From positions 10,205-74,204 of the forward strand of contig JAMCWL010000103.1 in the NCBI GenBank assembly GCA_023481285.1: 64,000 bases of DNA. The letters are read 5' to 3'. Below the pieces are notes generated by a model. That model was not told the origin of the DNA and made no database searches. It saw nothing but the letters and a program-made list of their open reading frames with translations. The stretch is from Actinomycetota bacterium. Lineage in GTDB: Bacteria > Actinomycetota > Aquicultoria > Aquicultorales > JAMCWL01. This document shows positions 1,463 through 48,067 of the stretch, in pieces (position 1 is the stretch's first letter; the number at the start of each line of letters is the position of its first letter). The position numbers and the translations under genes were made by a program.

Positions 1463-3037
1463 ATGGAGAGAAAGATGCGACGTCGCGAATCCGATGGATC
1501 GGCCGGTTTCAACTTTTCGCCGGGAAGAAACAGGGCCTCGCAGATAAATTGGCATCCCTGGAGCTCGGCGTCGTTTGCGAGGGCCGAAGAGGCCGATCGT
1601 CCGATATTTCTTCTGATAACGACATTCTGGAGCGGGCGCTCTCACCTCATGGATGAGACGACCTTTTCAGACTGGAGAGTTATCCGGGAGCTCAACCGCC
1701 GCTTCATCCCCGTCCGCGTTGATGGCGACCGCCGGCCCGACGTAAGCGATCGTTATCTCTTCAACGGCTGGCCGACGGCGGCTTTTCTCACTCCGGACGG
1801 CGACATAATCGCCAGCCGGAATTTCACCGGCGCCGAAGAGTTGCTCAATATTTCGAGAAAAATCACGACGCTCTATCGGAATTTTGGAAGAGAGATGCGC
1901 TTCGAGGCGCAATCCGGCCGACGCGACCTTCTCTCGCTTGAGCTCGATTGGATCGGGAGGTCGTGTAAGTTCAACCCCGGGCTCGCGCCGATCATCGTCG
2001 GCACCCTTGTTAACAGCTATAACCAGGCCGGCGGAAGCTTTGGTGAGAATGATAAGCTCCCCAATCCAGCCGCTTTGGAGCTGCTGATGAGGACTTCCCG
2101 GCAGCAGAGACCCGCCCTCTTGGAGATGGCGACGTCTATTCTGAGTAAAATGGCAACCGGGGGCCTCTACGACCGCATCCAGGGTGGTTTTTACCGCTGT
2201 TCAGCGGGGAAGGTTTGGGGTTCGCCCGATAGGGCGAAGCTGCTCTCGGTCAACGCTGCCCTTATCGCCAACTACTTACTTGCCTATCGCCTGACCAGGA
2301 CGGATCACTACCGCGAGTTGGCCTTCGGAAGCATAGACTACGTCAGTAAAAACCTTCTAGCGGGCGATAGCGGCGGTTTTTTTGCCAGCGAGGATTCCTC
2401 GACGAGCCGCCCGCGGAGGTTAACCGGGGGCGGGCGACCCCTCCCCCGCATCGACAGAACGATATTCACCGACCAGAACTGCTCAATGGTCAACGCTTAT
2501 CTCGATGCGCATCTCATCTCCAGGGAAGGGCAGTACCTTGACTACGCCCTGGCGACGCTTGACCTTCTATGGAGCAAGTGTTTTGAGCCCGACCGGGGAA
2601 TGGCCCACTATCTTGTGAAAGACGGCGCGCATCTCTTCGGCCACTTGAATGACCAGGCCTGGGCCATATACGCCCTGGCGAGAGCGGGGGCCGTAACAGG
2701 TGAGCGCGGCCACGTCGTCCGGGCAATCGAACTGCTCGATATAGCCTCAGCCGCTCTCTATGAGGAAGGCGGTTTTTGCGATCTGCCCTTCAACGCATAC
2801 TCGAACGGGCTCTTAAAGATGAAGCTCAGGCCGATATCCGGAAACGCCGTAATGGCCAGGGCGCTCGCTTTGCTTGCCTCCTTGACCGACAACCGGGAGT
2901 ACCTTGAACTTGCAGAGCGGATTCTGGGCTCGTTAAAGGTTGAGACCATCCTCCCCACGTGCGAAATGAGCGAGTACGGCCTTTCGATCTTTGAAATCGC
3001 GCAGGCATCCTCTACATACCGCCGCAAAGCTGCATGA
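1463..3037 (+). CDS. DUF255/YyaL-type protein with a thioredoxin-like N-domain and an (alpha/alpha)6 barrel
   Basis: 524-aa ORF. The N-terminus (INWHPWSSASFARAEEADRPIFLLITTFWSGRSHLMDETTF) matches the DUF255 layout. The usual CHWCHVM redox motif reads SGRSHLM here. Confidence 0.7.
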   Translation: MERKMRRRESDGSAGFNFSPGRNRASQINWHPWSSASFARAEEADRPIFLLITTFWSGRSHLMDETTFSDWRVIRELNRRFIPVRVDGDRRPDVSDRYLFNGWPTAAFLTPDGDIIASRNFTGAEELLNISRKITTLYRNFGREMRFEAQSGRRDLLSLELDWIGRSCKFNPGLAPIIVGTLVNSYNQAGGSFGENDKLPNPAALELLMRTSRQQRPALLEMATSILSKMATGGLYDRIQGGFYRCSAGKVWGSPDRAKLLSVNAALIANYLLAYRLTRTDHYRELAFGSIDYVSKNLLAGDSGGFFASEDSSTSRPRRLTGGGRPLPRIDRTIFTDQNCSMVNAYLDAHLISREGQYLDYALATLDLLWSKCFEPDRGMAHYLVKDGAHLFGHLNDQAWAIYALARAGAVTGERGHVVRAIELLDIASAALYEEGGFCDLPFNAYSNGLLKMKLRPISGNAVMARALALLASLTDNREYLELAERILGSLKVETILPTCEMSEYGLSIFEIAQASSTYRRKAA

Positions 3038-3960: not shown

Positions 3961-4218
3961 ATGTCGGGATATGTCTTTGTCGTACTCGCCATAATTTTCG
4001 TCGTCGTGCTTTTCGGGATGATATTTTATGGAGCAAGCACTCTGATGCGCAGGCTGAACGAGCAGCTCCGTGAAGACAAGCGCGAGCCGTCAAAAAAGGC
4101 GCTCGGCGAGTTGGAGTCCCGCTACGCGAGGGGTGAGATTGACCGGGTAGAATTCGAGTCAAAGCTCAGAGACATCGAGAAAGCCCCTCGTGAAGACGAG
4201 GAGCGCGATGATAAGTAA
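3961..4218 (+). CDS. SHOCT-domain small membrane protein
   Basis: An N-terminal TM helix is followed by LESRYARGEIDRVEFESKLRDI, which is SHOCT-like. Confidence 0.6.
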   Translation: MSGYVFVVLAIIFVVVLFGMIFYGASTLMRRLNEQLREDKREPSKKALGELESRYARGEIDRVEFESKLRDIEKAPREDEERDDK

Positions 4219-4225
4219 AATGTCC

Positions 4226-4699
4226 TTACGCAGCCCGTCTGCCCGTCGAAATCTCTCTAAGGACGTTGAAAACCTCATCTATATCCGGGACATCCGCGTC
4301 CTTGTAGAGGCGGCTGTATCGAACGGTCCTCTCCGCATCGAGCACCATTACGGCGCGATGCTCCCGTAGCTCCTCGAGGTTCCAGACCCCAAAGGCCTTG
4401 CCGACCTCACCCCAGCGGTCGGTAAGCAGAGGAAAGGTCACCCCAATGTCGTCGGCGTACGCCTTGTGACACCAGTTGCTGTCGACGCTGATGCCGAGCA
4501 CACTTGCGCCCATCTCCCGTATCTCGGAACTCCGAGATTCGCAAGCCTGGAGTTCTCCCGTTCAAATCGGTGTGAAGTCGTGAACGTAAAAGAAGAGAGC
4601 GGTATTGCCGCCCTCATTGTAGCGGCTCAACTGAACCTCACCGCCGCTCTGGTCGCGCAAGATGAAGTCAGGCGCGCGAAACCCGGCCTGGAGCATCAT
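4226..4699 (-). CDS. BCP/PrxQ-type peroxiredoxin with an in-frame TGA at 4564-4562, a putative selenocysteine at the peroxidatic position
   Basis: The ORF track reports only 4226..4513. The same frame upstream reads MMLQAGFRAPDFILRDQSGGEVQLSRYNEGGNTALFFYVHDFTPI-TGA-TGELQACESRSSEIREMGASVLGISVDS... The TGA replaces Cys in the FTPxCT motif. An AGGAGG RBS lies upstream, and an alternative GTG start is at 4705. Confidence 0.75.
4515..4561 (-). promoter_or_regulatory. Candidate bacterial SECIS hairpin immediately 3' of the UGA
   Basis: The RNA reads UGA ACGGGAGAACUCCAGGCUUGCGAAUCUCGGAGUUCCGAGAUACGG. GAACUCC pairs with GGAGUUC as a 7-bp stem. An alternative stem is UCUCGG/CCGAGA. I folded this by eye only. 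Confidence 0.4.
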
Positions 4700-4823
4700 A
4701 TCCACGATGACCTCCTAAGAGAAGAGTTTTAACGTTACGTGATTGATTTCCAGAATCGCTCTCCTTTACGCGGGCCGGGCAGCCCTGATGAGCGCTTTCT
4801 TTTAGCGGTTGTTAAATGGCCTC

Positions 4824-5744
4824 TTACGCTATCGCTTCAGAGGGGATCTTTCCCAACTCCACTAAAGCCGACCTTAGAACTTCCAGGCCCTTGGGGCCTA
4901 GATCGACAAGCGGCAGCCTTACCGGACCTGCGGGCTGTCCCATCCATTTGAGGGCTTGCTTAACGGGGGCCGGGTTAGGCTCGACGAAGAGCGCCTTGAC
5001 CGTCGGGAGAATCCGGTAGTGTATCTCGCGGGCCTCTTCCACCCGCCCGGCCGTGACGAGCTCTACAATCTCGCAGACCTCCCGGCCGATAACGTGCCCG
5101 ACCGCGGCGACCGCCCCATGCCCGCCCAGGCATATGAGCGAAAACGTGAGTGCGTCCTCACCGGCGTAGACGTGGAAACCGCTTCCCCTCGTGCCCCTCA
5201 GAACGGACATCGCTTGCAGAATATCCCCCGACGCGTCCTTGAGACCGACTATATTCTCAATTTCAGAGAGACGGATTATCGTATCCGGTTCAATGTTCCT
5301 CCCGGTTCTCGCCGGGATGTTATAGAGAATCATTGGGAGTGAGACGGCCTCGGCCACCTCCTTGAAGTGGCGGTAGATACCTTCTTGGCTTGGCCTGTTG
5401 TAGTAGGGCCCGACCTGCAGGGTGCCTGCGACGCCGATTTCTGCGGCGGCCTCCGTCAGCTCTATCGCCTCCTTCGTGGAGTTCGAGCCCGTCCCCGGAA
5501 TGACCGGGACCCTCCCCGCGACCTGGTCATAGACTATGCGTATGACCTCGATGTGTTCCCGGTGGGAGAGGGTCGGCGACTCTCCCGTCGTGCCACAGGG
5601 AATTATGGCGGCTGCCCCCTGCTGCTCTATCAGGTAATCGGTTAGCCGGCGCAAGCCTGATTCATCAAGCTTGTACTCGTCGGTAAAGGGCGTGATTATG
5701 GGGATCAGGCAGCCCCTCAGGTCCCATTTCTTCTGGCCCATCAA
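4824..5744 (-). CDS. dapA: 4-hydroxy-tetrahydrodipicolinate synthase (DapA/NAL family)
   Basis: Family motifs GTTGESPTLSHREH, YNIPARTG and GLKDASG (catalytic Lys) are present. AGGAGG RBS. Confidence 0.8.
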   Translation of the reverse strand: MMGQKKWDLRGCLIPIITPFTDEYKLDESGLRRLTDYLIEQQGAAAIIPCGTTGESPTLSHREHIEVIRIVYDQVAGRVPVIPGTGSNSTKEAIELTEAAAEIGVAGTLQVGPYYNRPSQEGIYRHFKEVAEAVSLPMILYNIPARTGRNIEPDTIIRLSEIENIVGLKDASGDILQAMSVLRGTRGSGFHVYAGEDALTFSLICLGGHGAVAAVGHVIGREVCEIVELVTAGRVEEAREIHYRILPTVKALFVEPNPAPVKQALKWMGQPAGPVRLPLVDLGPKGLEVLRSALVELGKIPSEAIA

Positions 5745-7472: not shown

Positions 7473-9893
7473 CTAGCTACGGATAATGGCGTTGAAGTCT
7501 TTTTGGAGACGTGCGACTATCTTCGCCTGTCTCTCCTTCGCCTCTTCAACTGTGAGCGTTCTCTCGGTCGACCGGTAGGTCATCGTATAGGCAACGCTTT
7601 TTTTACCGGCCGGAATACCGCCGTCTTGGAAGACGTCGAAGACTCCGGCGCTCTCAAGAATATCGCCGCCTTCTCTCTCAATCATCTTGATTATCTCCTC
7701 GTTTGTAACGCTTTCATCTACTACGAGCGCTACATCAAGCGATATGCCTGGAAACCTCGGTATCTCCTCGAAGAAGCGCTCTAAAGATGCCCCTTCAATC
7801 AGCAGATCGTGGCTGATTTCGGCCGCCATAACCTCCACCGGCAAGTCGTAGTTCGCCTGGACCGCCGGGTGTATCTGGCCGAACGCCCCGGCAGGCTCGC
7901 CGCCGATGAGAAGATCCGCAGATTTACCGGGATGAAAACGTGGATCTTTGGACGGCATGATCGACCAGTCGCCGATGCCGATCCTCTCCACCAGGTCGGT
8001 AACGACGCCTTTGAGGTCGTAGAAGTCGAATCGTCGACCCTTCTCCTTGTCGTACCACTCGTAGCCAAGTACCCGCCCGCTTAGGACAATGCCGAGCATC
8101 CTCTTCTCTTCCGGTAGAATGGCCCCGTCTGCAGGCATGAAGACCCTGCCCACCTCAAACTCCTTGACCGAGTACTGCTCCCGGTAGAGGTTGTGGCGCA
8201 CCACCTTGAGGAGCCCTGGCAGCAGCGAAGTCCTCATAATCGACTGCTCCTCGCTCAGTGGATTCAAGAGGGGAATGGCGTTCCGATATGCGCTGTCGGC
8301 GGGCAGATTCATATTGTCGGCATCCTGCGGGCCCATAAAGCTGTACGTCCGCGCCTCGAAAAGGCCCTGTGATATCAACCGCTCAGCGATTACCCCGGCC
8401 ATTCTCTGTTCGGGCGAGAGCCCTCCACGCTTACCACTGCTCTCCGGCAGGGTCGATTCGATGACGTCGTACCCGTACAACCGGGCGACCTCCTCGACCA
8501 GGTCGATCTCCCTCTCGAGGTCAAACCGGAAGGTCGGAACGGTAACCTTCAGTAGATGGGCGTCCTCGGACGCTGGCTTCACCCCGAGCCCGAGATGCGA
8601 GAGAATGGTCGAGACCTCTTTCGTCTCGAGCGACGCTCCCAGAATGGCATTCACCCGTCGGGTTCTAAGCGTCAGATTTCGCGGCTCTATCCTCGTCGGG
8701 TAGACGTCGATCTCACCCTTTAGAACTTCCCCACCGGCCAGCTCTCTCATCAGCTCAATCGCCCGGTCGGAGGCGAATTGGACGATGTTCGGATCAACGC
8801 CCTTTTCAAAGCGCGCCGACGCTTCCGAAAAGAGACCGAGCCGCCGAGAGGTGCGCATAATCGATTCGGGCTTGAAGTGGGCCGCCTCGAGCAGCACGTT
8901 GACCGTTCTATCGGTGACCTCCGAGTACCCGCCGCCCATGATTCCGGCGATTGCTATAGCTCGACTTGCGTCTGCGATGACCAGGTCGTCAGTTAATAGC
9001 AAGCGCTCGACCTCGTCGAGGGTGACGATGCGCTCGCCTTCGGTCGCCCTCCTGACGATAATCTTCCCGCCGCCAACCTGATCGAAGTCGAAGGCGTGAA
9101 GCGGCTGCCCGGTCTCGATCATGACGTAGTTTGTAGCATCGACGATGTTGGAGATCGGCCGGACGCCCGCCTTTTCCAGCCTCCGCCTCATCCAGAGGGG
9201 TGAGGGACCGATCTTCACCCCCATGATGAGCCGGGCCTCGTATCTCGGACAGAGTTCCGGGTCCTTTATCTCAACCGACGCCATCTCCGCTGCCGGTCGA
9301 ACGCCCTCCATGACGCTTGTCGATGGAAGCTTCAGCTCGGCGGCGGTGATCGCCGCCGCTTCTCGCGCTACGCCTATCATCCCGAGGCAATCCGGGCGAT
9401 TCGCCGTTACTTCCAGCTCGAATACAACGTCATCCAAGCCGAGCGCCTTAGCCAAAGGCGTACCGATCTCATATGTGCTGTCGAGAACCATGATGCCGGC
9501 GGCGTCCTCGCCAAGTCCGAGCTCCGACTTCGAGCAGATCATCCCATTCGATTCGATACCCCTGATCTTGGCCCTGCTCAACTCGATTCCGTTCGGAAGC
9601 CTGGCGCCGGGCAAGCCCACCGGAACCACCTGTCCGCCCTCGACGTTTGGCGCCCCACAGACTATCTGCCGCAGCTCTTCCTCACCTATATCAACTTGAC
9701 ATACCTTAAGACGGTCGGCGTTCGGGTGCTTTTCGCAATCGACCACGAGGCCGACGATGACCTTATCCAACTCCTTGTCCAGGTATTTTACGCTCTCGAC
9801 CGCCGTTCCAGTCAGGTCAAAGCGCTTAGCAAGCTCATCGGGAGATAGCTCGATGTGGACGTATTCTTTTAACCAACTGAACGGTACGAGCAT
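7473..9893 (-). CDS. pheT: Phenylalanine--tRNA ligase beta subunit
   Basis: 806 aa, with the tRNA-binding N-domain (HPNADRLKVCQVD), B3/4, B5 and FDX-ACB regions. Confidence 0.95.
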   Translation of the reverse strand: MLVPFSWLKEYVHIELSPDELAKRFDLTGTAVESVKYLDKELDKVIVGLVVDCEKHPNADRLKVCQVDIGEEELRQIVCGAPNVEGGQVVPVGLPGARLPNGIELSRAKIRGIESNGMICSKSELGLGEDAAGIMVLDSTYEIGTPLAKALGLDDVVFELEVTANRPDCLGMIGVAREAAAITAAELKLPSTSVMEGVRPAAEMASVEIKDPELCPRYEARLIMGVKIGPSPLWMRRRLEKAGVRPISNIVDATNYVMIETGQPLHAFDFDQVGGGKIIVRRATEGERIVTLDEVERLLLTDDLVIADASRAIAIAGIMGGGYSEVTDRTVNVLLEAAHFKPESIMRTSRRLGLFSEASARFEKGVDPNIVQFASDRAIELMRELAGGEVLKGEIDVYPTRIEPRNLTLRTRRVNAILGASLETKEVSTILSHLGLGVKPASEDAHLLKVTVPTFRFDLEREIDLVEEVARLYGYDVIESTLPESSGKRGGLSPEQRMAGVIAERLISQGLFEARTYSFMGPQDADNMNLPADSAYRNAIPLLNPLSEEQSIMRTSLLPGLLKVVRHNLYREQYSVKEFEVGRVFMPADGAILPEEKRMLGIVLSGRVLGYEWYDKEKGRRFDFYDLKGVVTDLVERIGIGDWSIMPSKDPRFHPGKSADLLIGGEPAGAFGQIHPAVQANYDLPVEVMAAEISHDLLIEGASLERFFEEIPRFPGISLDVALVVDESVTNEEIIKMIEREGGDILESAGVFDVFQDGGIPAGKKSVAYTMTYRSTERTLTVEEAKERQAKIVARLQKDFNAIIRS

Positions 9894-9989: not shown

Positions 9990-11039
9990 CTAGAACTGTC
10001 GTAGGAACCGCATATCATTCTCGAAAAACAACCTCATGTCCGAAATGCCATATTTCAACATAGCGATTCTTTCCACGCCCATGCCGAACGCAAAGCCGGA
10101 GACGGTTTCCGGATCGTAGCCGACTTGCGCAAGAACGTTCGGATCGACCATGCCGGCGCCGAGAATCTCTATCCAGCCGTTGCCACAGACCCGACAACCC
10201 CGCCTGTTGCAGACGAAGCACGAGACGTCAACCTCGGCCGACGGCTCGGTAAAGGGGAAGAAGTGCGGGCGTAGCCTCACTTCGCGATCCTCTCCAAACA
10301 TCGCCTTCGCGAAGACCTCGAGCGTCCCCTTCAAATCCCCGAGTGTGATCTTCTCATCAACCGCCAGGCCTTCGACCTGGTGAAAGACGGGGGAGTGCGT
10401 TGGATCGATCGCGTCCCGGCGGTAGACGCGCCCGGGGACGATGACGTAAATGGGGGGCTTTGCCGCCTCCATCACCCTTATCTGGACCGGTGAGGTATGC
10501 GTCCTTAGAAGAGCGTCATCACTCGCAGGCCGGTCGCCCGCCTTTCGGACGTAGAAGGTGTCCGTCGTCGACCTAGCGGGATGATCGGGAGGGGTATTGA
10601 GCGCCTCGAAATTGTAATAATCGAGCTCGATCTCGGGCCCTTCGGCCACGCGGTATCCCAGCCCGATGAATATGTCGATGATCTCATCCGTTACCTGGGT
10701 AAGCAGGTGCTTTCTTCCAACGTTCGGCTTTCGACCGGGCAGCGTTATATCCACGCGCTCAGCTTCAAATTTGGCCTTGAGCTCGCTTTTTCCCAGCTCC
10801 TCTCTCCTGCTCGCCAGCGCTTGCTCGATCTCCTGGCGAACCTCATTGACGAGCGCGCCAACAACCGGGCGCTCTTCAGCCGGGAGCATTCCCAACTCCT
10901 TGAGAGCCGAAGTTATCTTCCCTTTTTTGCCCAGGTAGGAGACCCTGATCTCCTCAAGTTCGGCGACCGTACCGGCTGACTTAATCGAGGCTATAGCTTC
11001 TTCTTTGACTGACCGCACCTCTTCCGCCTTCAAAAACAA
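9990..11039 (-). CDS. pheS: Phenylalanine--tRNA ligase alpha subunit
   Basis: 349 aa with class II motifs (FPFTEPSAEVD, GFAFGMGVERIAML). Confidence 0.95.
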   Translation of the reverse strand: MFLKAEEVRSVKEEAIASIKSAGTVAELEEIRVSYLGKKGKITSALKELGMLPAEERPVVGALVNEVRQEIEQALASRREELGKSELKAKFEAERVDITLPGRKPNVGRKHLLTQVTDEIIDIFIGLGYRVAEGPEIELDYYNFEALNTPPDHPARSTTDTFYVRKAGDRPASDDALLRTHTSPVQIRVMEAAKPPIYVIVPGRVYRRDAIDPTHSPVFHQVEGLAVDEKITLGDLKGTLEVFAKAMFGEDREVRLRPHFFPFTEPSAEVDVSCFVCNRRGCRVCGNGWIEILGAGMVDPNVLAQVGYDPETVSGFAFGMGVERIAMLKYGISDMRLFFENDMRFLRQF

Positions 11040-11044
11040 GCCTC

Positions 11045-11334
11045 CTTCTATAAATAAATCCCCCGTCCTAGGACGAAGGGATTCTTCGCGGTACCACCTA
11101 AGTTAGCCATAGGGCTCTCTCATTGAAGCTTCGCTTCCGCCCGTTAACGGGGGCTCCGTCCAGGTCTACTGGTTGTCGTTACGCTTCTACCGATACAACT
11201 TTCTACCTGACGCTCCAGGGTGAAACTTCAGCCAGCACGCCTCTTGGTCGCTTCCAGCCATGGCGCCCTTCTCTTGAGAGGTTACCAACCTACTCCTCCC
11301 CTTCACAGCGTTTGCTATATTGCGGAGGATTATA
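11045..11334 (-). promoter_or_regulatory. T-box leader (Phe specifier) with an extended -10 promoter and a terminator, controlling pheST
   Basis: On the minus strand there is TGgTATAAT at 11337-11329. An AGAGA-type stem I element follows. A UUUC-A specifier candidate lies at 11225-11221. The T-box core GGUGGUACCGCG lies at 11098-11087. A terminator hairpin and U-tract lie at ~11085-11052, just upstream of the pheS RBS. Confidence 0.75.
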
Positions 11335-25549: not shown

Positions 25550-26296
25550 TTGGAGACGCTAATGGCCGTCAAGAAGGGTTTTATCGAAAGGGTTACAGAT
25601 GAGCATGTCCGGGAGATGCTCTCGCTCATCCCTCAAAATATCTTCCGCTTGCTGAGAGACGCTATCCTCCTTTACGACCACTCCTCCTACCCTTCGGCAT
25701 TCGCCCTGGCGACTTACTCGCTCGAAGAGCTCGGTAAGGCCTTCGCCTTCATCACCATTCTGAACCCGGCCGAGAAGCCCGCCGTCGATCAGAGGCTTTT
25801 AATCCTTGACAAAGCCTTCTCGGATCATACCAACAAGCAGCGTGAAGCCCTCAAGTTTATCAGCGAAGCAATCGAGGAGATAAAATCGTCGACCAGCTTC
25901 AACAGCCTTCTCTGGGGGATATCCGATAAGTATGACGACGAAAAACTCTCTACCATCTACCAGCGCATTCTCTACACATTCAAGAAAGTCGAGCTCAGAA
26001 AGCGGCGGAGCATATATGTCGACCTCGACAAGCAATACCGACCGACCTTTCCCGAAATAAAACGCGACGAAGCGTTCGACATCATCGAGACTTGTCTTGA
26101 CGCGCTTACGATCCTTCTGATTTCGGCGACCAGTCCCGGTAAAAACGCCTGGCTAGGCAATCTACTCTACTCAGCAGGGTTCGAGCGCTTTCCCCCCGAC
26201 CTCGAGGAGTTACTGGATCTCAGCCTCCGCTTGAGCCAACAGCGGTTGGAAGGAATTGTCAAGAAAGCATCCGACGCGCATCTTTACCTTTATTAG
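25550..26296 (+). CDS. AbiV-like (HEPN-related) abortive-infection family protein
   Basis: The segment AILLYDHSSYPSAFALATYSLEELGKA followed by a later DHTNKQ resembles my memory of the AbiV family signature. The region is AT-richer than its neighbours. Confidence 0.45.
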   Translation: METLMAVKKGFIERVTDEHVREMLSLIPQNIFRLLRDAILLYDHSSYPSAFALATYSLEELGKAFAFITILNPAEKPAVDQRLLILDKAFSDHTNKQREALKFISEAIEEIKSSTSFNSLLWGISDKYDDEKLSTIYQRILYTFKKVELRKRRSIYVDLDKQYRPTFPEIKRDEAFDIIETCLDALTILLISATSPGKNAWLGNLLYSAGFERFPPDLEELLDLSLRLSQQRLEGIVKKASDAHLYLY

Positions 26297-37974: not shown

Positions 37975-39192
37975 CTACCATACCCTGTATCTGCCTTCGG
38001 CCAGGTCAGCGATGAACACCGCCATCTCCGAGAGTTCGAGATCTATTATCTCGGCGACCTTGTCGGCCACCGCCGAGTAGGCGACCCCGGGCTTGAGAAT
38101 CAGTTGAGCCGAGGCGACCCTCGGCTCATCCACCGGCCGGCCTATCTGGCTTGCCAACCAGACGTATACCTCGGCCACCCCTTCTACACCCAGGTATATC
38201 TCGTTTGCGATCCGGTGGGCCAGAATGCTGTATATCTTGCCCACGTGACTCGTCGGATTCTTGCCGGCCGCCGCCTCCATGCCCGACGGCCTGTTAAGCG
38301 CGATCACGCCGTTGACCCGATTCCCTCGCCCGACCTCCCCGGAATCGGCGTCCTCGGCCGACGTCCCCGTCACCGAGAGGTAGATACCCCCCATCCCTCG
38401 GCCCTTTTTATCGAGCGTATTGAGCTCGATCTTTATTGATTCGAGGGGACCCAGGTTGCGCCGAGCAAACTTGGTAATCTCTTCGCCGACCGCCTCCTTG
38501 ATAGACCAGTATTCCGCCTCATTTTCAACAAAGCGGTCGATGAGCGGGAGAGCAATCGTGAGAAGCAGCTCTCCCTTCACGCGAAAACCCATCACCTTGA
38601 CGTCTTCTCCGGCGGCCGGGTGCACCTCTTTAAAGCCGACGGAGTTTATATAACGCTCGGTCTCGAGGACGAGCTTCTCGGTGACGGTGAGCGGCGCATA
38701 CCCCACAGCCGCCGACGTATCGTTGGCGCTCATCAAGCGATCGCCGCGTTCGAAGATATCGGTGAGCTCGGTCGATCCGGGCCGCAAGGCCGTCTCGATC
38801 ACCACGTCTTTTTGGGGATCGACGAAACGGAGATTCTCGCGTACCCAACGTCGTGCGGTCTCTTCGACTATCGCCTGAACGTCAATGCTGTCCCCACCAA
38901 AATTGAAGGTCGCTCGGTCACCCACGATCAGCCTCATCGGCACGTCAACGCTCCCGCCCCCGAACAAGCGAGTCACCTCGCCGGCGATCAAGAGCCCCTT
39001 GTCGATGTTATGGTGAAGTATCTTGTCGAAGCGTGCCAGATACTCGCGGCTTAGCGCGATCGATATCTCCTCCATCACCGCGTCACAGATGGAGTCCGGA
39101 TGCCCAACCCCCTTGCGCTCAACTATCTCGACCTGGTGTGCAGAGACGGGGGGCTGCTTCATATCCTCGACAATTATCTGCCTGCTCTTCAC
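37975..39192 (-). CDS. mat: Archaeal-type S-adenosylmethionine synthetase (MAT, PF01941-like)
   Basis: [32 protein letters not shown] and [21 protein letters not shown]...[12 protein letters not shown] match what I recall of Methanocaldococcus MAT. Confidence 0.85.
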
Positions 39193-46114: not shown

Positions 46115-48067
46115 TTGCCGATTATCAAGACGACCTGTACTAGAGATTGTCCGGATGCCTGCGGCCTTCACGTCAAGGTGGAAGGCGGCCGAGCCACCTC
46201 CATCAGAGGAGCCCCCGAGCACCCAATTACCAAGGGCTTTGTCTGCTATAAGCAGCGGTACTTCCTGGATCGAGTTTACGGGAAGCGTCGTGTAAAATCT
46301 CCGCTCCTCCGTGAGGACGCCGGTTGGCGGGAACTCGACTGGAAGCAGGCCATTGGCCTTCTCGCCGGACGCATCGATATGGTTCTTGATCGCAGCGGCC
46401 CCTTAAGTCTCTTTCACTACCAGGGCAGTGGTTCGCTGTCGGCAACGAAGCTCTTGAACAGGCGATTCTTTAACCTCATAGGCGGTTCGACCTTCGCGAC
46501 CGGCAGTCTTTGCGGTGGCGCTGGGATGGCCGGGCAGAGACTTGATTTCGGCGCCAGGACCGCACACGATCCCCTGGACCTCGTAAACAGTAAGATGATA
46601 ATCATCTGGGGGAGGAATCCGGCCGCTACTAACATCCATCAAATGGGGCTAATTAGAGAAGCGAAATCCCGAGGAGCGACCGTTGCGCTTATCGACCCCC
46701 TGCCAACCGAGACGGCCCGCTATGCCGACTACCATCTGAAACCATCGCCCGGAACGGATGTTTTTCTGGCGCTCGCTATAGGAGCGGCGCTCATTGAGAT
46801 GCGCCTGGTGGACCTCGATTTCGTCTCAGAATATACCGACGGGTTCGCCGCATACGAGTCGATGATAAACAAGTACTCGATCGATTGGTTATCCCGCCGC
46901 TGTGACGTGCCCGCAATACAGATCGAGGAGGTGGCAATCGAATACGGTCGGATCAAGCCGGCCACCATACTGCTTGGCTGGGGTCCCCAGAGGTACGCGT
47001 GGGGCGGGGAGACCTTTCGGCTCATCGACGCCCTAGGGGCGCTCACCGCGAATCTCGGTGTTTCCGGCGGGGGTGTAAATTATGACATGGACAGCGCCAG
47101 GCACTTCGACGCCTCCCTTAAAGGTGATGACGGCCGTGTGACGGCGAGGCGCGATATATCGAAAGCCCGGCTTGGCATGGAGCTCCCTCTCTGCGATCCT
47201 CGTGTGGACGTGGGTATCGTCTGCGGAGCGAACCCGGCGGTCCAGTCGCTTGATGCACGGGAAACAGCCCAAGCGCTTTCCGATATCGGCTTTTTAGCGG
47301 TCATCGATTACGAGATGACAGAGACGGCCAAGCTAGCCGATCTGGTCCTGCCGTCCACAACATTCTTGGAAGAAAACGATGTCGTCGGCTCTTTTTTCCA
47401 CCACCATGTCGGCTGCGTCAACCGGGCGATTGATCCAGTAGGCGACTCAAAAAGCGACCTCGAGATCTTTCAGCTCGTGGCCGAGAAACTCGGCGTCTCC
47501 GGACTTGAAGGAAGTACTAACGAGTGGATCGATCGACTGCTGAGACCGGTCGAGGACGACGGCATCACCCGACAAGCGCTTTCCAAGCGGACCTGGATCC
47601 GGACTTCCGAACCGTGCGTACCGTTCGAGGGCGGTCGTTTTCCGACGAGTAGCGGGCGCTTCAACTATGTCAGTGAGGTGCCGCAGGTCTGGGGATTCGA
47701 TAGCGATTATCCGCTCGTCCTTTTGTCCACCCATGCCAGGGAGTGGTTGCACTCAGAGATGACGGAAGAGCAGTTGAACGCTCCGCTGGTCCTGAAAATC
47801 TCCCCGGCGACGGCGTCGTCCGCCGGTCTTCAAGAAGGCGACCTTGCGAAGGTTTCTTCCCGAAGCGGTTCATTTAGAGCCGTCGTCAAGCTCGATGAGC
47901 GCGTCAGAGACGACACCATCGCTTGTCTTCAAGGGAGACCCTTGCCCGACGGCCCTAACGCGTCGACCGCCCAAATCATCAGCAATATCGGGGAGAATGC
48001 GTGCTACTACCAGACCCGCGTGAAGCTAGAGCGCCTTCGGCCGACCACCGACCGCCGACCACCTTAG
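46115..48067 (+). CDS. Molybdopterin (bis-MGD) oxidoreductase family protein, cytoplasmic type
   Basis: TTG start. The N-terminal 4Fe-4S motif is CTRDCPDACGLHV...C. The molybdopterin and C-terminal dinucleotide-binding domains follow. The last ~9 codons read into a CCGACC word repeat. Confidence 0.8.
   Translation: MPIIKTTCTRDCPDACGLHVKVEGGRATSIRGAPEHPITKGFVCYKQRYFLDRVYGKRRVKSPLLREDAGWRELDWKQAIGLLAGRIDMVLDRSGPLSLFHYQGSGSLSATKLLNRRFFNLIGGSTFATGSLCGGAGMAGQRLDFGARTAHDPLDLVNSKMIIIWGRNPAATNIHQMGLIREAKSRGATVALIDPLPTETARYADYHLKPSPGTDVFLALAIGAALIEMRLVDLDFVSEYTDGFAAYESMINKYSIDWLSRRCDVPAIQIEEVAIEYGRIKPATILLGWGPQRYAWGGETFRLIDALGALTANLGVSGGGVNYDMDSARHFDASLKGDDGRVTARRDISKARLGMELPLCDPRVDVGIVCGANPAVQSLDARETAQALSDIGFLAVIDYEMTETAKLADLVLPSTTFLEENDVVGSFFHHHVGCVNRAIDPVGDSKSDLEIFQLVAEKLGVSGLEGSTNEWIDRLLRPVEDDGITRQALSKRTWIRTSEPCVPFEGGRFPTSSGRFNYVSEVPQVWGFDSDYPLVLLSTHAREWLHSEMTEEQLNAPLVLKISPATASSAGLQEGDLAKVSSRSGSFRAVVKLDERVRDDTIACLQGRPLPDGPNASTAQIISNIGENACYYQTRVKLERLRPTTDRRPP

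What the first reader, a model, noticed from the sequence alone, without database searches (positions are those of the whole stretch)
4226..4705. Peroxiredoxin with an in-frame UGA at the catalytic cysteine position: probable selenoprotein
The ORF track reports only the C-terminal 95 codons (4226-4513). In the same frame, 62 more codons upstream encode the missing N-terminal half of a BCP/PrxQ-type peroxiredoxin and are preceded by an AGGAGG RBS. The only interruption is one TGA at 4564-4562. It falls at the peroxidatic Cys of the FTPxC-T motif (..VHDFTPI-U-TGELQAC..), and a plausible resolving Cys sits 7 residues later. A random nonsense mutation is unlikely to land on that exact codon. A stem (GAACUCC/GGAGUUC) begins a few nucleotides 3' of the UGA, where bacterial SECIS elements sit. 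Sec-containing peroxiredoxins are known (PrxU of Eubacterium acidaminophilum and Prx-like selenoprotein families), so the mechanism is established. What is new is the unannotated recoding event in this lineage, and standard gene callers will truncate the gene.
Basis: partly seen in the sequence, partly recalled or inferred. Interest (0 to 1): 0.75.

Follow-up and report, generated by a model that had tools for sequence, protein, structure and literature searches.

The report
Selenocysteine peroxiredoxin gene split by UGA
This is one intact peroxiredoxin (peroxide-detoxifying) gene whose catalytic residue is encoded by UGA, almost certainly read as selenocysteine; this kind of bacterial selenoprotein is already well known and gene finders routinely cut it in two.

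Summary
On the minus strand, AGGAGG (4716-4711) is followed by GTG 4705 and ATG 4699. The frame then runs to TAA 4228-4226 with one interruption, TGA 4564-4562.

Read through, the 157-159 aa product is an AhpC/TSA peroxiredoxin (Pfam 7.6e-30). It is closest to M. tuberculosis AhpE. The TGA sits on the invariant peroxidatic Cys column.

The TGA is not an error. Three assemblies carry it identically. Eight further orthologues (41-62% identity) have TGA in the same column. Synonymous sites are saturated, while both halves remain under purifying selection. TGA also ends 6 of 35 window genes, so the code is standard.

A 7-bp tetraloop hairpin (4538-4521, loop AGUU, 30 nt after UGA, -9 to -10 kcal/mol) meets the published bacterial SECIS model. 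It recurs in L004, the closest orthologue (62% identity), with a compensatory pair.

Not shown: selA, selB, selC or selD. None lies in the 64 kb or in related loci, and the rest of the genome could not be read.

Sec-peroxiredoxins are an established family, and 79 of 80 metagenome pattern hits were of this kind. Verdict: a correct call, a new member of a known kind, of modest interest.

The parts
4226..4705 (-). Complete peroxiredoxin gene, 159 codons from GTG (157 from ATG 4699) including one UGA, plus the TAA stop
4711..4716 (-). Shine-Dalgarno AGGAGG, 5 nt before GTG 4705 and 11 nt before ATG 4699
   Evidence: sequence read directly
4565..4705 (-). N-terminal coding segment (MDMMLQAGFRAPDF...FYVHDFTPI). 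Public gene calls show it as a separate 45-aa mini-gene or omit it
   Evidence: pN 0.35 against saturated pS versus L004
4562..4564 (-). UGA codon at the peroxidatic position, inferred selenocysteine (Sec48 from GTG, Sec46 from ATG 4699)
4521..4538 (-). Core SECIS-like hairpin AUCUCGG-AGUU-CCGAGAU. The loop starts 30 nt after UGA
   Evidence: Conserved in L004 as AGCUCGG-GGUC-CCGAGCU
4509..4551 (-). Extended imperfect helix around the core hairpin in the minimum-free-energy fold
4527..4555 (-). It is mutually exclusive with the core hairpin and not conserved
4229..4561 (-). C-terminal coding segment. Its last 95 codons (from ATG 4513) are what ORF finders report

Best explanation
Window 4705-4226(-) is a single gene for an AhpE-like thiol(selenol) peroxidase. 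Its peroxidatic residue is selenocysteine, encoded by UGA 4564-4562.

Inferred mechanism, following the established bacterial pathway:
- When the ribosome reaches the UGA, SelB-GTP carrying Sec-tRNA(Sec) binds the apical part of the hairpin 4538-4521 (loop AGUU, 30 nt downstream) and delivers Sec instead of terminating.
- In the protein, the selenolate in the T-x-x-U motif attacks a hydroperoxide, helped by the invariant Arg (EHRAV).
- The resulting selenenic acid is reduced by an external thiol partner. This is the 1-Cys/AhpE-type cycle, favoured because most orthologues have no Cys. In the window and L004 it may instead proceed through a Se-S bond with Cys at +7.

Shown here: gene continuity, family assignment, the U/C column, conservation of the UGA, selection on both halves, a model-conform hairpin and the standard code.

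Inferred: actual Sec insertion, SelB binding to this hairpin, the reductant, and any role for Cys+7.
For: - Family: PF00578 at 7.6e-30. The best solved relative is AhpE Rv2238c at 4.7e-20, with the TGA on its Cys45.
- U/C column: the TGA aligns with the invariant Cys of eight Cys-type homologues, and the catalytic Arg is invariant.
- Not an error: identical TGA in the window and in Logan assemblies from runs SRR22746125 and SRR10267473.
- Conservation: TGA in the same column in L004 (62% identity), L003, L085/86, L087/88 and L089 (41-46% identity), and in L105, L213/214 and L215 of the same group, whose C-terminal fragments score 44-49%. Each has its own start codon and an open frame on both sides.
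- Database pattern: the nearest hits are all 92-109-aa C-terminal fragments. Full-length Cys forms are only 31-42% identical.
- Selection: within-group pS is 0.5-0.9 (saturated) and pN is 0.13-0.35 on both sides of the TGA.
- Code: TGA terminates 6 of 35 Pfam-supported window genes and the L004 gene itself.
- Hairpin: it meets all four criteria of the published bSECIS model (PMC13188914), namely loop AGUU, 7 bp, 30 nt, -9.1 kcal/mol. Only 2.4% of 1,896 TGA triplets in the window do as well.
- Hairpin conservation: L004 keeps it with a U-A to G-C double change produced by two non-synonymous substitutions.
- Precedent: Prx (TxxU) is an experimentally verified bacterial selenoprotein family (PMC13188914, PMC1794560). 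79 of 80 metagenome pattern hits are Prx ORFs reading through TGA at this position.
Against: - No selA, selB or selD domain and no tRNA-Sec was found in the 64-kb window or in about 130 kb of related loci. The rest of the genome could not be examined.
- There is no other candidate selenoprotein gene in the window.
- The fold of the 71-nt region is not significantly more stable than shuffles (z = -1.5).
- Hairpin covariation rests on two sequences only.
- The seven more distant orthologues lack a model-conform hairpin at this position.
- The Pro of the canonical PxxxTxxC motif is Val here.
- There is no experimental evidence.
Confidence: 0.9

Rival explanations
1. Pseudogene: a nonsense mutation happened to hit the catalytic Cys codon of a decaying peroxiredoxin gene.
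For: Gene callers split or truncate it. The 95-aa fragment is on record only from Logan, not as an NCBI protein. No Sec machinery was seen.
Against: The TGA is retained in nine distinct orthologues at 41-62% identity, while synonymous sites are saturated. Both halves keep start codons, open frames and low pN. A dead gene would not keep either half.
Confidence: 0.02
2. Sequencing or assembly error at one base (true codon TGC or TGT).
For: Single-base errors occur in metagenome-assembled genomes.
Against: The sequence is identical in the window and in two independent SRA-run assemblies. TGA is also present in eight further orthologues from unrelated samples.
Confidence: 0.01
3. UGA is decoded without selenium. 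Possible routes are genome-wide reassignment (Trp or Gly), near-cognate readthrough, or Cys insertion at this site.
For: The Sec machinery is not demonstrated. TGA is the least-used stop (6 of 35).
Against: TGA ends six well-supported genes in the window and the orthologous gene in L004. Long ORFs are not fragmented by TGA. Trp or Gly at the peroxidatic position would kill catalysis. The column is Cys in all Cys-type homologues. A SECIS-model hairpin sits at the expected distance.
Confidence: 0.05
4. Two separate polypeptides (47 aa and 95 aa) are made and associate.
For: Public gene calls list two mini-genes.
Against: ATG 4513 has no properly spaced SD (GGGAG abuts it). The position of the first Met after the TGA differs among orthologues: their called fragments start at different residues. 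The catalytic residue would be missing from both pieces.
Confidence: 0.02

Closest known systems
Bacterial Sec-containing peroxiredoxins (selenoprotein family 'Prx', PF00578, TxxU motif; Zhang et al. 2006 PMC1794560; review PMC13188914)
   Same: AhpC/TSA fold. UGA at the peroxidatic Cys within T-x-x-U. Cys-containing homologues exist. A hairpin lies just downstream inside the coding region. The gene is truncated by standard gene callers.
   Different: This clade is AhpE-like rather than the Prx1/AhpC-type PrxU. The active-site Pro of PxxxTxxU is Val here. The organism is an uncultured MAG lineage labelled Actinomycetota by NCBI.
PrxU of Eubacterium acidaminophilum (NCBIfam NF040737 peroxi_PrxU)
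   Different: The window protein scores 70 bits against a cut-off of 270. PrxU's model is 233 positions long, against 157-159 aa here. The window protein is not an orthologue.
AhpE (Rv2238c) of Mycobacterium tuberculosis, a mycoredoxin-dependent 1-Cys peroxiredoxin
   Same: It is the best solved-structure match (4.7e-20 over residues 2-139), with similar length and no canonical resolving Cys in most members of the clade. The nearest Cys-type homologues are labelled mycoredoxin-dependent peroxiredoxin by JGI.
   Different: About 35-40% identity. AhpE has Cys, not Sec, and keeps the active-site Pro. The margin over archaeal BCP (70 bits) is small.
E. coli fdhF-type bacterial SECIS and the bSECISearch consensus model
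   Same: A stem-loop in the coding region just 3' of UGA. The small apical loop has G followed by U or G in its first positions (AGUU here, GGUC in L004). Spacing is within 16-37 nt.
   Different: There is no sequence similarity beyond the loop motif, and no Rfam family covers it. SelB binding is untested.

Membership tests
Peroxiredoxin, AhpC/TSA (PF00578) | Profile match above Pfam's gathering score | tested here: met
   103.8 bits against a cut-off of 26, E 7.6e-30, residues 7-128
Peroxiredoxin, AhpC/TSA (PF00578) | Active-site motif PxxxT/SxxC(U) plus the conserved catalytic Arg | tested here: inconclusive
   T-P-I-U and Arg (EHRAV) are present and aligned. The Pro is replaced by Val in the window and by L, T or V in seven orthologues. 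Only L004 keeps P
Bacterial selenoprotein Prx (TxxU) | In-frame UGA aligned with the catalytic Cys of Cys-containing homologues | tested here: met
Bacterial selenoprotein Prx (TxxU) | UGA conserved in orthologues from other organisms, with coding constraint on both sides | tested here: met
   Nine distinct orthologues. pN is far below pS both upstream and downstream
Bacterial selenoprotein Prx (TxxU) | [quoted passage not shown] | tested here: met
   Loop AGUU, 7 bp, 30 nt, -9.1 kcal/mol. 4.4% of window TGA triplets pass the model and 2.4% do as well. L004 also passes
Bacterial selenoprotein Prx (TxxU) | Host genome encodes selA, selB, selD and tRNA-Sec | not testable with these tools
   None was found in the window or in about 130 kb of related loci. 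The single genome-collection scan did not return this genome
Bacterial selenoprotein Prx (TxxU) | Selenium actually incorporated into the protein | not testable with these tools
   Needs 75Se labelling or mass spectrometry
PrxU (NF040737 equivalog) | Score at or above the curated cut-off | tested here: not met
   70.3 bits against 270
BCP/PrxQ subfamily | NCBIfam Bcp or PrxQ equivalog score, and a resolving Cys five residues after the peroxidatic residue | tested here: not met
   PRK09437 scores 61 against 140 and PrxQ scores 60 against 260. The Cys is at +7, not +5, and is absent in seven orthologues. The +5 spacing is from my own knowledge of BCP
AhpE subfamily | Closest to AhpE among solved peroxiredoxins, with 1-Cys architecture | tested here: inconclusive
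   AhpE is the top hit (75 bits), but Aeropyrum BCP is close (70 bits). The four group-2 orthologues checked in full have no Cys, which fits a 1-Cys type. No subfamily-specific profile was available

The most novel reading that the evidence does not exclude
The window gene and its relatives may form a distinct, previously uncatalogued AhpE-like '1-Sec' peroxiredoxin clade in uncultured anaerobic lineages. Three features would set it apart. The active site has lost the otherwise universal Pro. The gene has a fixed neighbourhood (dapA, a DUF255 thioredoxin-domain protein, a rhodanese). The SECIS has moved during evolution: it is a canonical tetraloop 30 nt after UGA in the window and L004, but in the sister group there is an invariant GCYCA-GGUCG-UGGGY hairpin 59 nt after UGA, outside the accepted 16-37 nt range.
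Probability: 0.25. Interest if true: 0.45.

Novelty: new member of a known kind. Interest (0 to 1): 0.28.

Why it matters
The practical value is in annotation. In public resources this gene appears as a 45-aa and a 95-aa fragment, or not at all. At least a dozen relatives are truncated in the same way, so antioxidant capacity and selenium use are under-counted in these uncultured lineages. The gene also implies that the organism has the selenocysteine-decoding trait, which predicts selABCD elsewhere in its genome. Biologically it adds one more Cys/Sec pair in the peroxiredoxin family. That family is already known for repeated Cys-to-Sec conversions, so the finding does not change current understanding.

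Tried and rejected
I used the exact 95-aa C-terminal part instead.
- The first word-indexed search with the single protein found only the fragment itself. A three-sequence profile was needed.
It returned only Cys-type homologues at 41% identity or less and not the source genome, so selABCD could not be sought.
- Rfam gave no SECIS-type hit at gathering or permissive thresholds.
- ARAGORN found no tRNA-Sec in the window or in ten related loci.
- The scan for other TGA-joined frames in the window found no second selenoprotein candidate.
- Two look-ups meant to read the NCBI contig beyond the window ends returned only short Logan contigs.
- A literature search for the WGS prefix of the related MAG returned nothing relevant.
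It has a 15-nt loop, lies 13 nt from UGA, and falls to -3.6 kcal/mol in L004, against -12.1 for the tetraloop hairpin.
- The covariation test on the sister-group hairpins was not significant.

Full report
**1. What is in the sequence**

On the minus strand the text reads ...TAG GAG GTC ATC GTG GAT ATG ATG CTC CAG.... The elements are:
- AGGAGG at 4716-4711.
- GTG at 4705-4703, 5 nt after the SD.
- ATG at 4699-4697 and 4696-4694.

An in-frame TAG overlapping the SD closes the frame upstream. From there the frame is open to TAA 4228-4226 except for one TGA at 4564-4562. Mechanical ORF listing reports only 4226-4513, 95 aa. With the TGA written as Cys, the 157-aa product matches Pfam AhpC-TSA at 7.6e-30 over residues 7-128, and Redoxin at 1.3e-15.

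**2. Position of the TGA**

The best solved relative is M. tuberculosis AhpE (Rv2238c) at 4.7e-20. The printed alignment pairs FTPI-[TGA]-TGEL with FTGI-C-QGEL, which is AhpE's peroxidatic Cys. In a 14-sequence alignment the TGA column is Cys in all eight Cys-type homologues, and the catalytic Arg (EHRAV) is invariant. The Pro of the textbook PxxxTxxC motif is Val in the window protein.

**3. Is the TGA real and maintained?**

The called 95-aa fragment occurs on two Logan contigs from different SRA runs. Both are 100% identical to the window across the gene, TGA included. That excludes a one-off base error but is not an evolutionary test.

A full HMMER scan with the 95-aa part and a profile search showed a pattern. 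The nearest relatives in public protein sets are almost all 92-109-aa fragments that begin shortly after the catalytic position. Full-length Cys forms are only 31-42% identical.

I fetched the DNA for seven of these fragments and recovered one more orthologue from a metagenome scan (L105). Every one has TGA in the identical column:

| Locus | Context around the TGA (*) |
|---|---|
| L004 (62% identity) | FYPADFTPI*TGELQTC |
| L003 | FYLHDFSPT*TSEF |
| L085/86 (NCBI GCA_023511485.1) | FYTHDFSPV*TSEL |
| L087/88 | TGA in the same column |
| L089 | TGA in the same column |
| L105 | TGA in the same column |
| L213/214 (GCA_027345605.1) | TGA in the same column |
| L215 | TGA in the same column |

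Each has its own start codon, and gene callers mark the N-terminal 44-54 aa as a separate mini-gene.

Nei-Gojobori counts within the two subgroups give pS of 0.5-0.9, which is saturated. pN is only 0.13-0.35 on both sides of the TGA. So the upstream piece is translated and constrained like the downstream piece. A null mutation could not persist across that divergence.

**4. Genetic code**

Of 35 Pfam-supported ORFs in the window, 15 end in TAG, 14 in TAA and 6 in TGA. The L004 orthologue itself ends in TGA. Long ORFs up to 1,220 aa are not broken by TGA. The code is standard, so this UGA is a site-specific recoding event.

**5. The RNA element**

It encloses a 15-nt loop and starts 6 nt after the UGA. 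It shares nucleotides with a tighter hairpin, AUCUCGG-AGUU-CCGAGAU (4538-4521, -10.1 kcal/mol), which is the one in the minimum-free-energy fold.

The tetraloop hairpin persists as AGCUCGG-GGUC-CCGAGCU at -12.1 kcal/mol. It carries a U-A to G-C double change produced by two non-synonymous substitutions (Ser to Ala, Ile to Leu).

The review PMC13188914 gives the published bacterial SECIS consensus:
- apical loop of 3-9 nt;
- stem of 4-16 bp;
- G in the first two loop positions, usually followed by G or U;
- 16-37 nt between UGA and the loop;
- energy at or below -7.5 kcal/mol.

The window hairpin meets every criterion: loop AGUU, 7 bp, 30 nt, -9.1 kcal/mol for the stem-loop alone. I applied a simple implementation of the model to all 1,896 TGA triplets of the window. 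4.4% pass and 2.4% do as well as this site.

There are caveats. The 71-nt region is not significantly more stable than shuffles (z = -1.5). Conservation rests on two sequences. Rfam has no matching family.

**6. What could not be shown**

No tRNA-Sec and no SelA, SelB or SelD domain lies in the 64 kb. None lies in the flanks of the related loci either. No second TGA-interrupted gene is present in the window.

Exact look-ups identify the window as part of a 101,363-bp contig of an NCBI MAG labelled 'Actinobacteria/Actinomycetota bacterium' (proteins MCL5292738-770). The rest of that assembly is out of reach.

**7. Mechanism**

Shown: one gene, the family, the catalytic column, a conserved UGA, and a hairpin at the right place.

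Inferred from the established bacterial pathway: SelB carrying Sec-tRNA(Sec) recognises the hairpin loop and inserts Sec. The selenolate then reduces hydroperoxides. The selenenic acid is recycled by an external thiol partner.

The Cys at +7 (and a second Cys in NWCHKAYA) occurs only in the window and L004. The four group-2 orthologues aligned in full contain no Cys at all, and all seven lack Cys at +7. The ancestral chemistry of the clade is therefore 1-Sec, like 1-Cys AhpE. A Se-S intermediate with Cys+7 is possible but unsupported. The canonical BCP resolving Cys is at +5 (my own knowledge).

**8. Comparison with what is known**

Prx (PF00578, TxxU) is listed among experimentally verified bacterial selenoproteins (PMC13188914). 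The 2006 survey counted 12 Sec-Prx genes and five independent Cys-to-Sec conversions (PMC1794560).

79 of those 80 are Prx reading frames that continue through the TGA, from several subfamilies. The phenomenon is thus common.

The window protein is not a PrxU orthologue (70 bits against 270). It reaches no NCBIfam Bcp or PrxQ cut-off either. AhpE-like is the best description, by a small margin over archaeal BCP. JGI's labels on the nearest Cys forms agree with that.

**9. Verdict**

It needs correction on the SECIS stem, the subfamily and the resolving Cys. It is a new member of a known kind. Its main value is correcting annotation and flagging selenium use in an uncultured lineage. Interest is modest.

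The most unusual thing seen lies outside the window. The sister group replaces the +30 hairpin by an invariant GCYCA-GGUCG-UGGGY hairpin whose loop is 59 nt after UGA. Its codons are identical at synonymous sites in the five orthologues tested (five of the six codons there, against 2 of 40 elsewhere), and the sequence recurs in the other two. This would fall outside the accepted SECIS spacing if it is the functional element.

Noticed in passing
L003 2969-3061; L085, L087, L089, L105, L213, L215 (the 93 nt from the TGA): Seven sister-group orthologues lack a model-conform hairpin 16-37 nt after UGA. Instead they share an invariant GCYCA-GGUCG-UGGGY hairpin with its loop 59 nt after UGA. Its codons are identical at synonymous sites in the five orthologues tested (five of the six codons there, against 2 of 40 elsewhere), and the sequence recurs in the other two. 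A long imperfect hairpin (+10 to +54) precedes it. This may be a non-canonical or relocated SECIS. The covariation test was not significant.
   Followed up: partly
window 4824-5744(-), 1463-3037(+); L085, L087, L089, L213, L215: The neighbourhood is conserved. dapA (DHDPS) lies immediately upstream of the Sec-peroxiredoxin in every locus with readable upstream sequence except L004. A DUF255/Thioredox_DsbH thioredoxin-domain protein lies within a few kb wherever enough flank was read. In five of the six annotated sister-group loci (not L213) a rhodanese gene is convergent downstream. The window has a small SHOCT gene (3961-4218) there instead.
   Followed up: partly
window 11066-11315 (-): A T-box leader (97 bits, above the gathering score) lies directly upstream of the pheS-pheT ORFs (9990-11039, 7473-9893).
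   Followed up: no
window 37975-39192 (-): The S-adenosylmethionine synthetase is of the archaeal type (PF01941, 4e-158), in what NCBI labels an actinobacterial MAG.
   Followed up: no
window 25550-26296 (+): ORF with a HEPN/AbiV domain (9e-18), a possible abortive-infection defence gene.
   Followed up: no
L090-L169 (metagenome loci): 79 of 80 hits to the pattern FY..DF[TS]P.-TGA-T are peroxiredoxin frames continuing past the TGA, from several subfamilies (FTPG*T, FTPV*T, FTPT*T). In L108 the frame runs 630 codons beyond the TGA, suggesting a fusion protein.
   Followed up: partly
window as a whole; L085: NCBI labels the window's MAG 'Actinobacteria bacterium'. The clearly syntenic relative GCA_023511485.1 is labelled 'Firmicutes bacterium'. 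At least one label is probably crude, and the true lineage is unresolved.
   Followed up: no
window 4586-4588 (-), codon Val in FYVHDF: The otherwise near-universal Pro of the peroxiredoxin PxxxTxxC motif is Val in the window and Leu, Thr or Val in the sister group. Only L004 keeps Pro, as do all eight Cys-type homologues aligned. This may be an adaptation of the active site to Sec.
   Followed up: partly
window 46115-48067 (+): A molybdopterin oxidoreductase (Fe4S4, Molybdopterin and Molydop_binding domains) has an uninterrupted ORF. It is not a Sec-containing formate dehydrogenase in this window.
   Followed up: no
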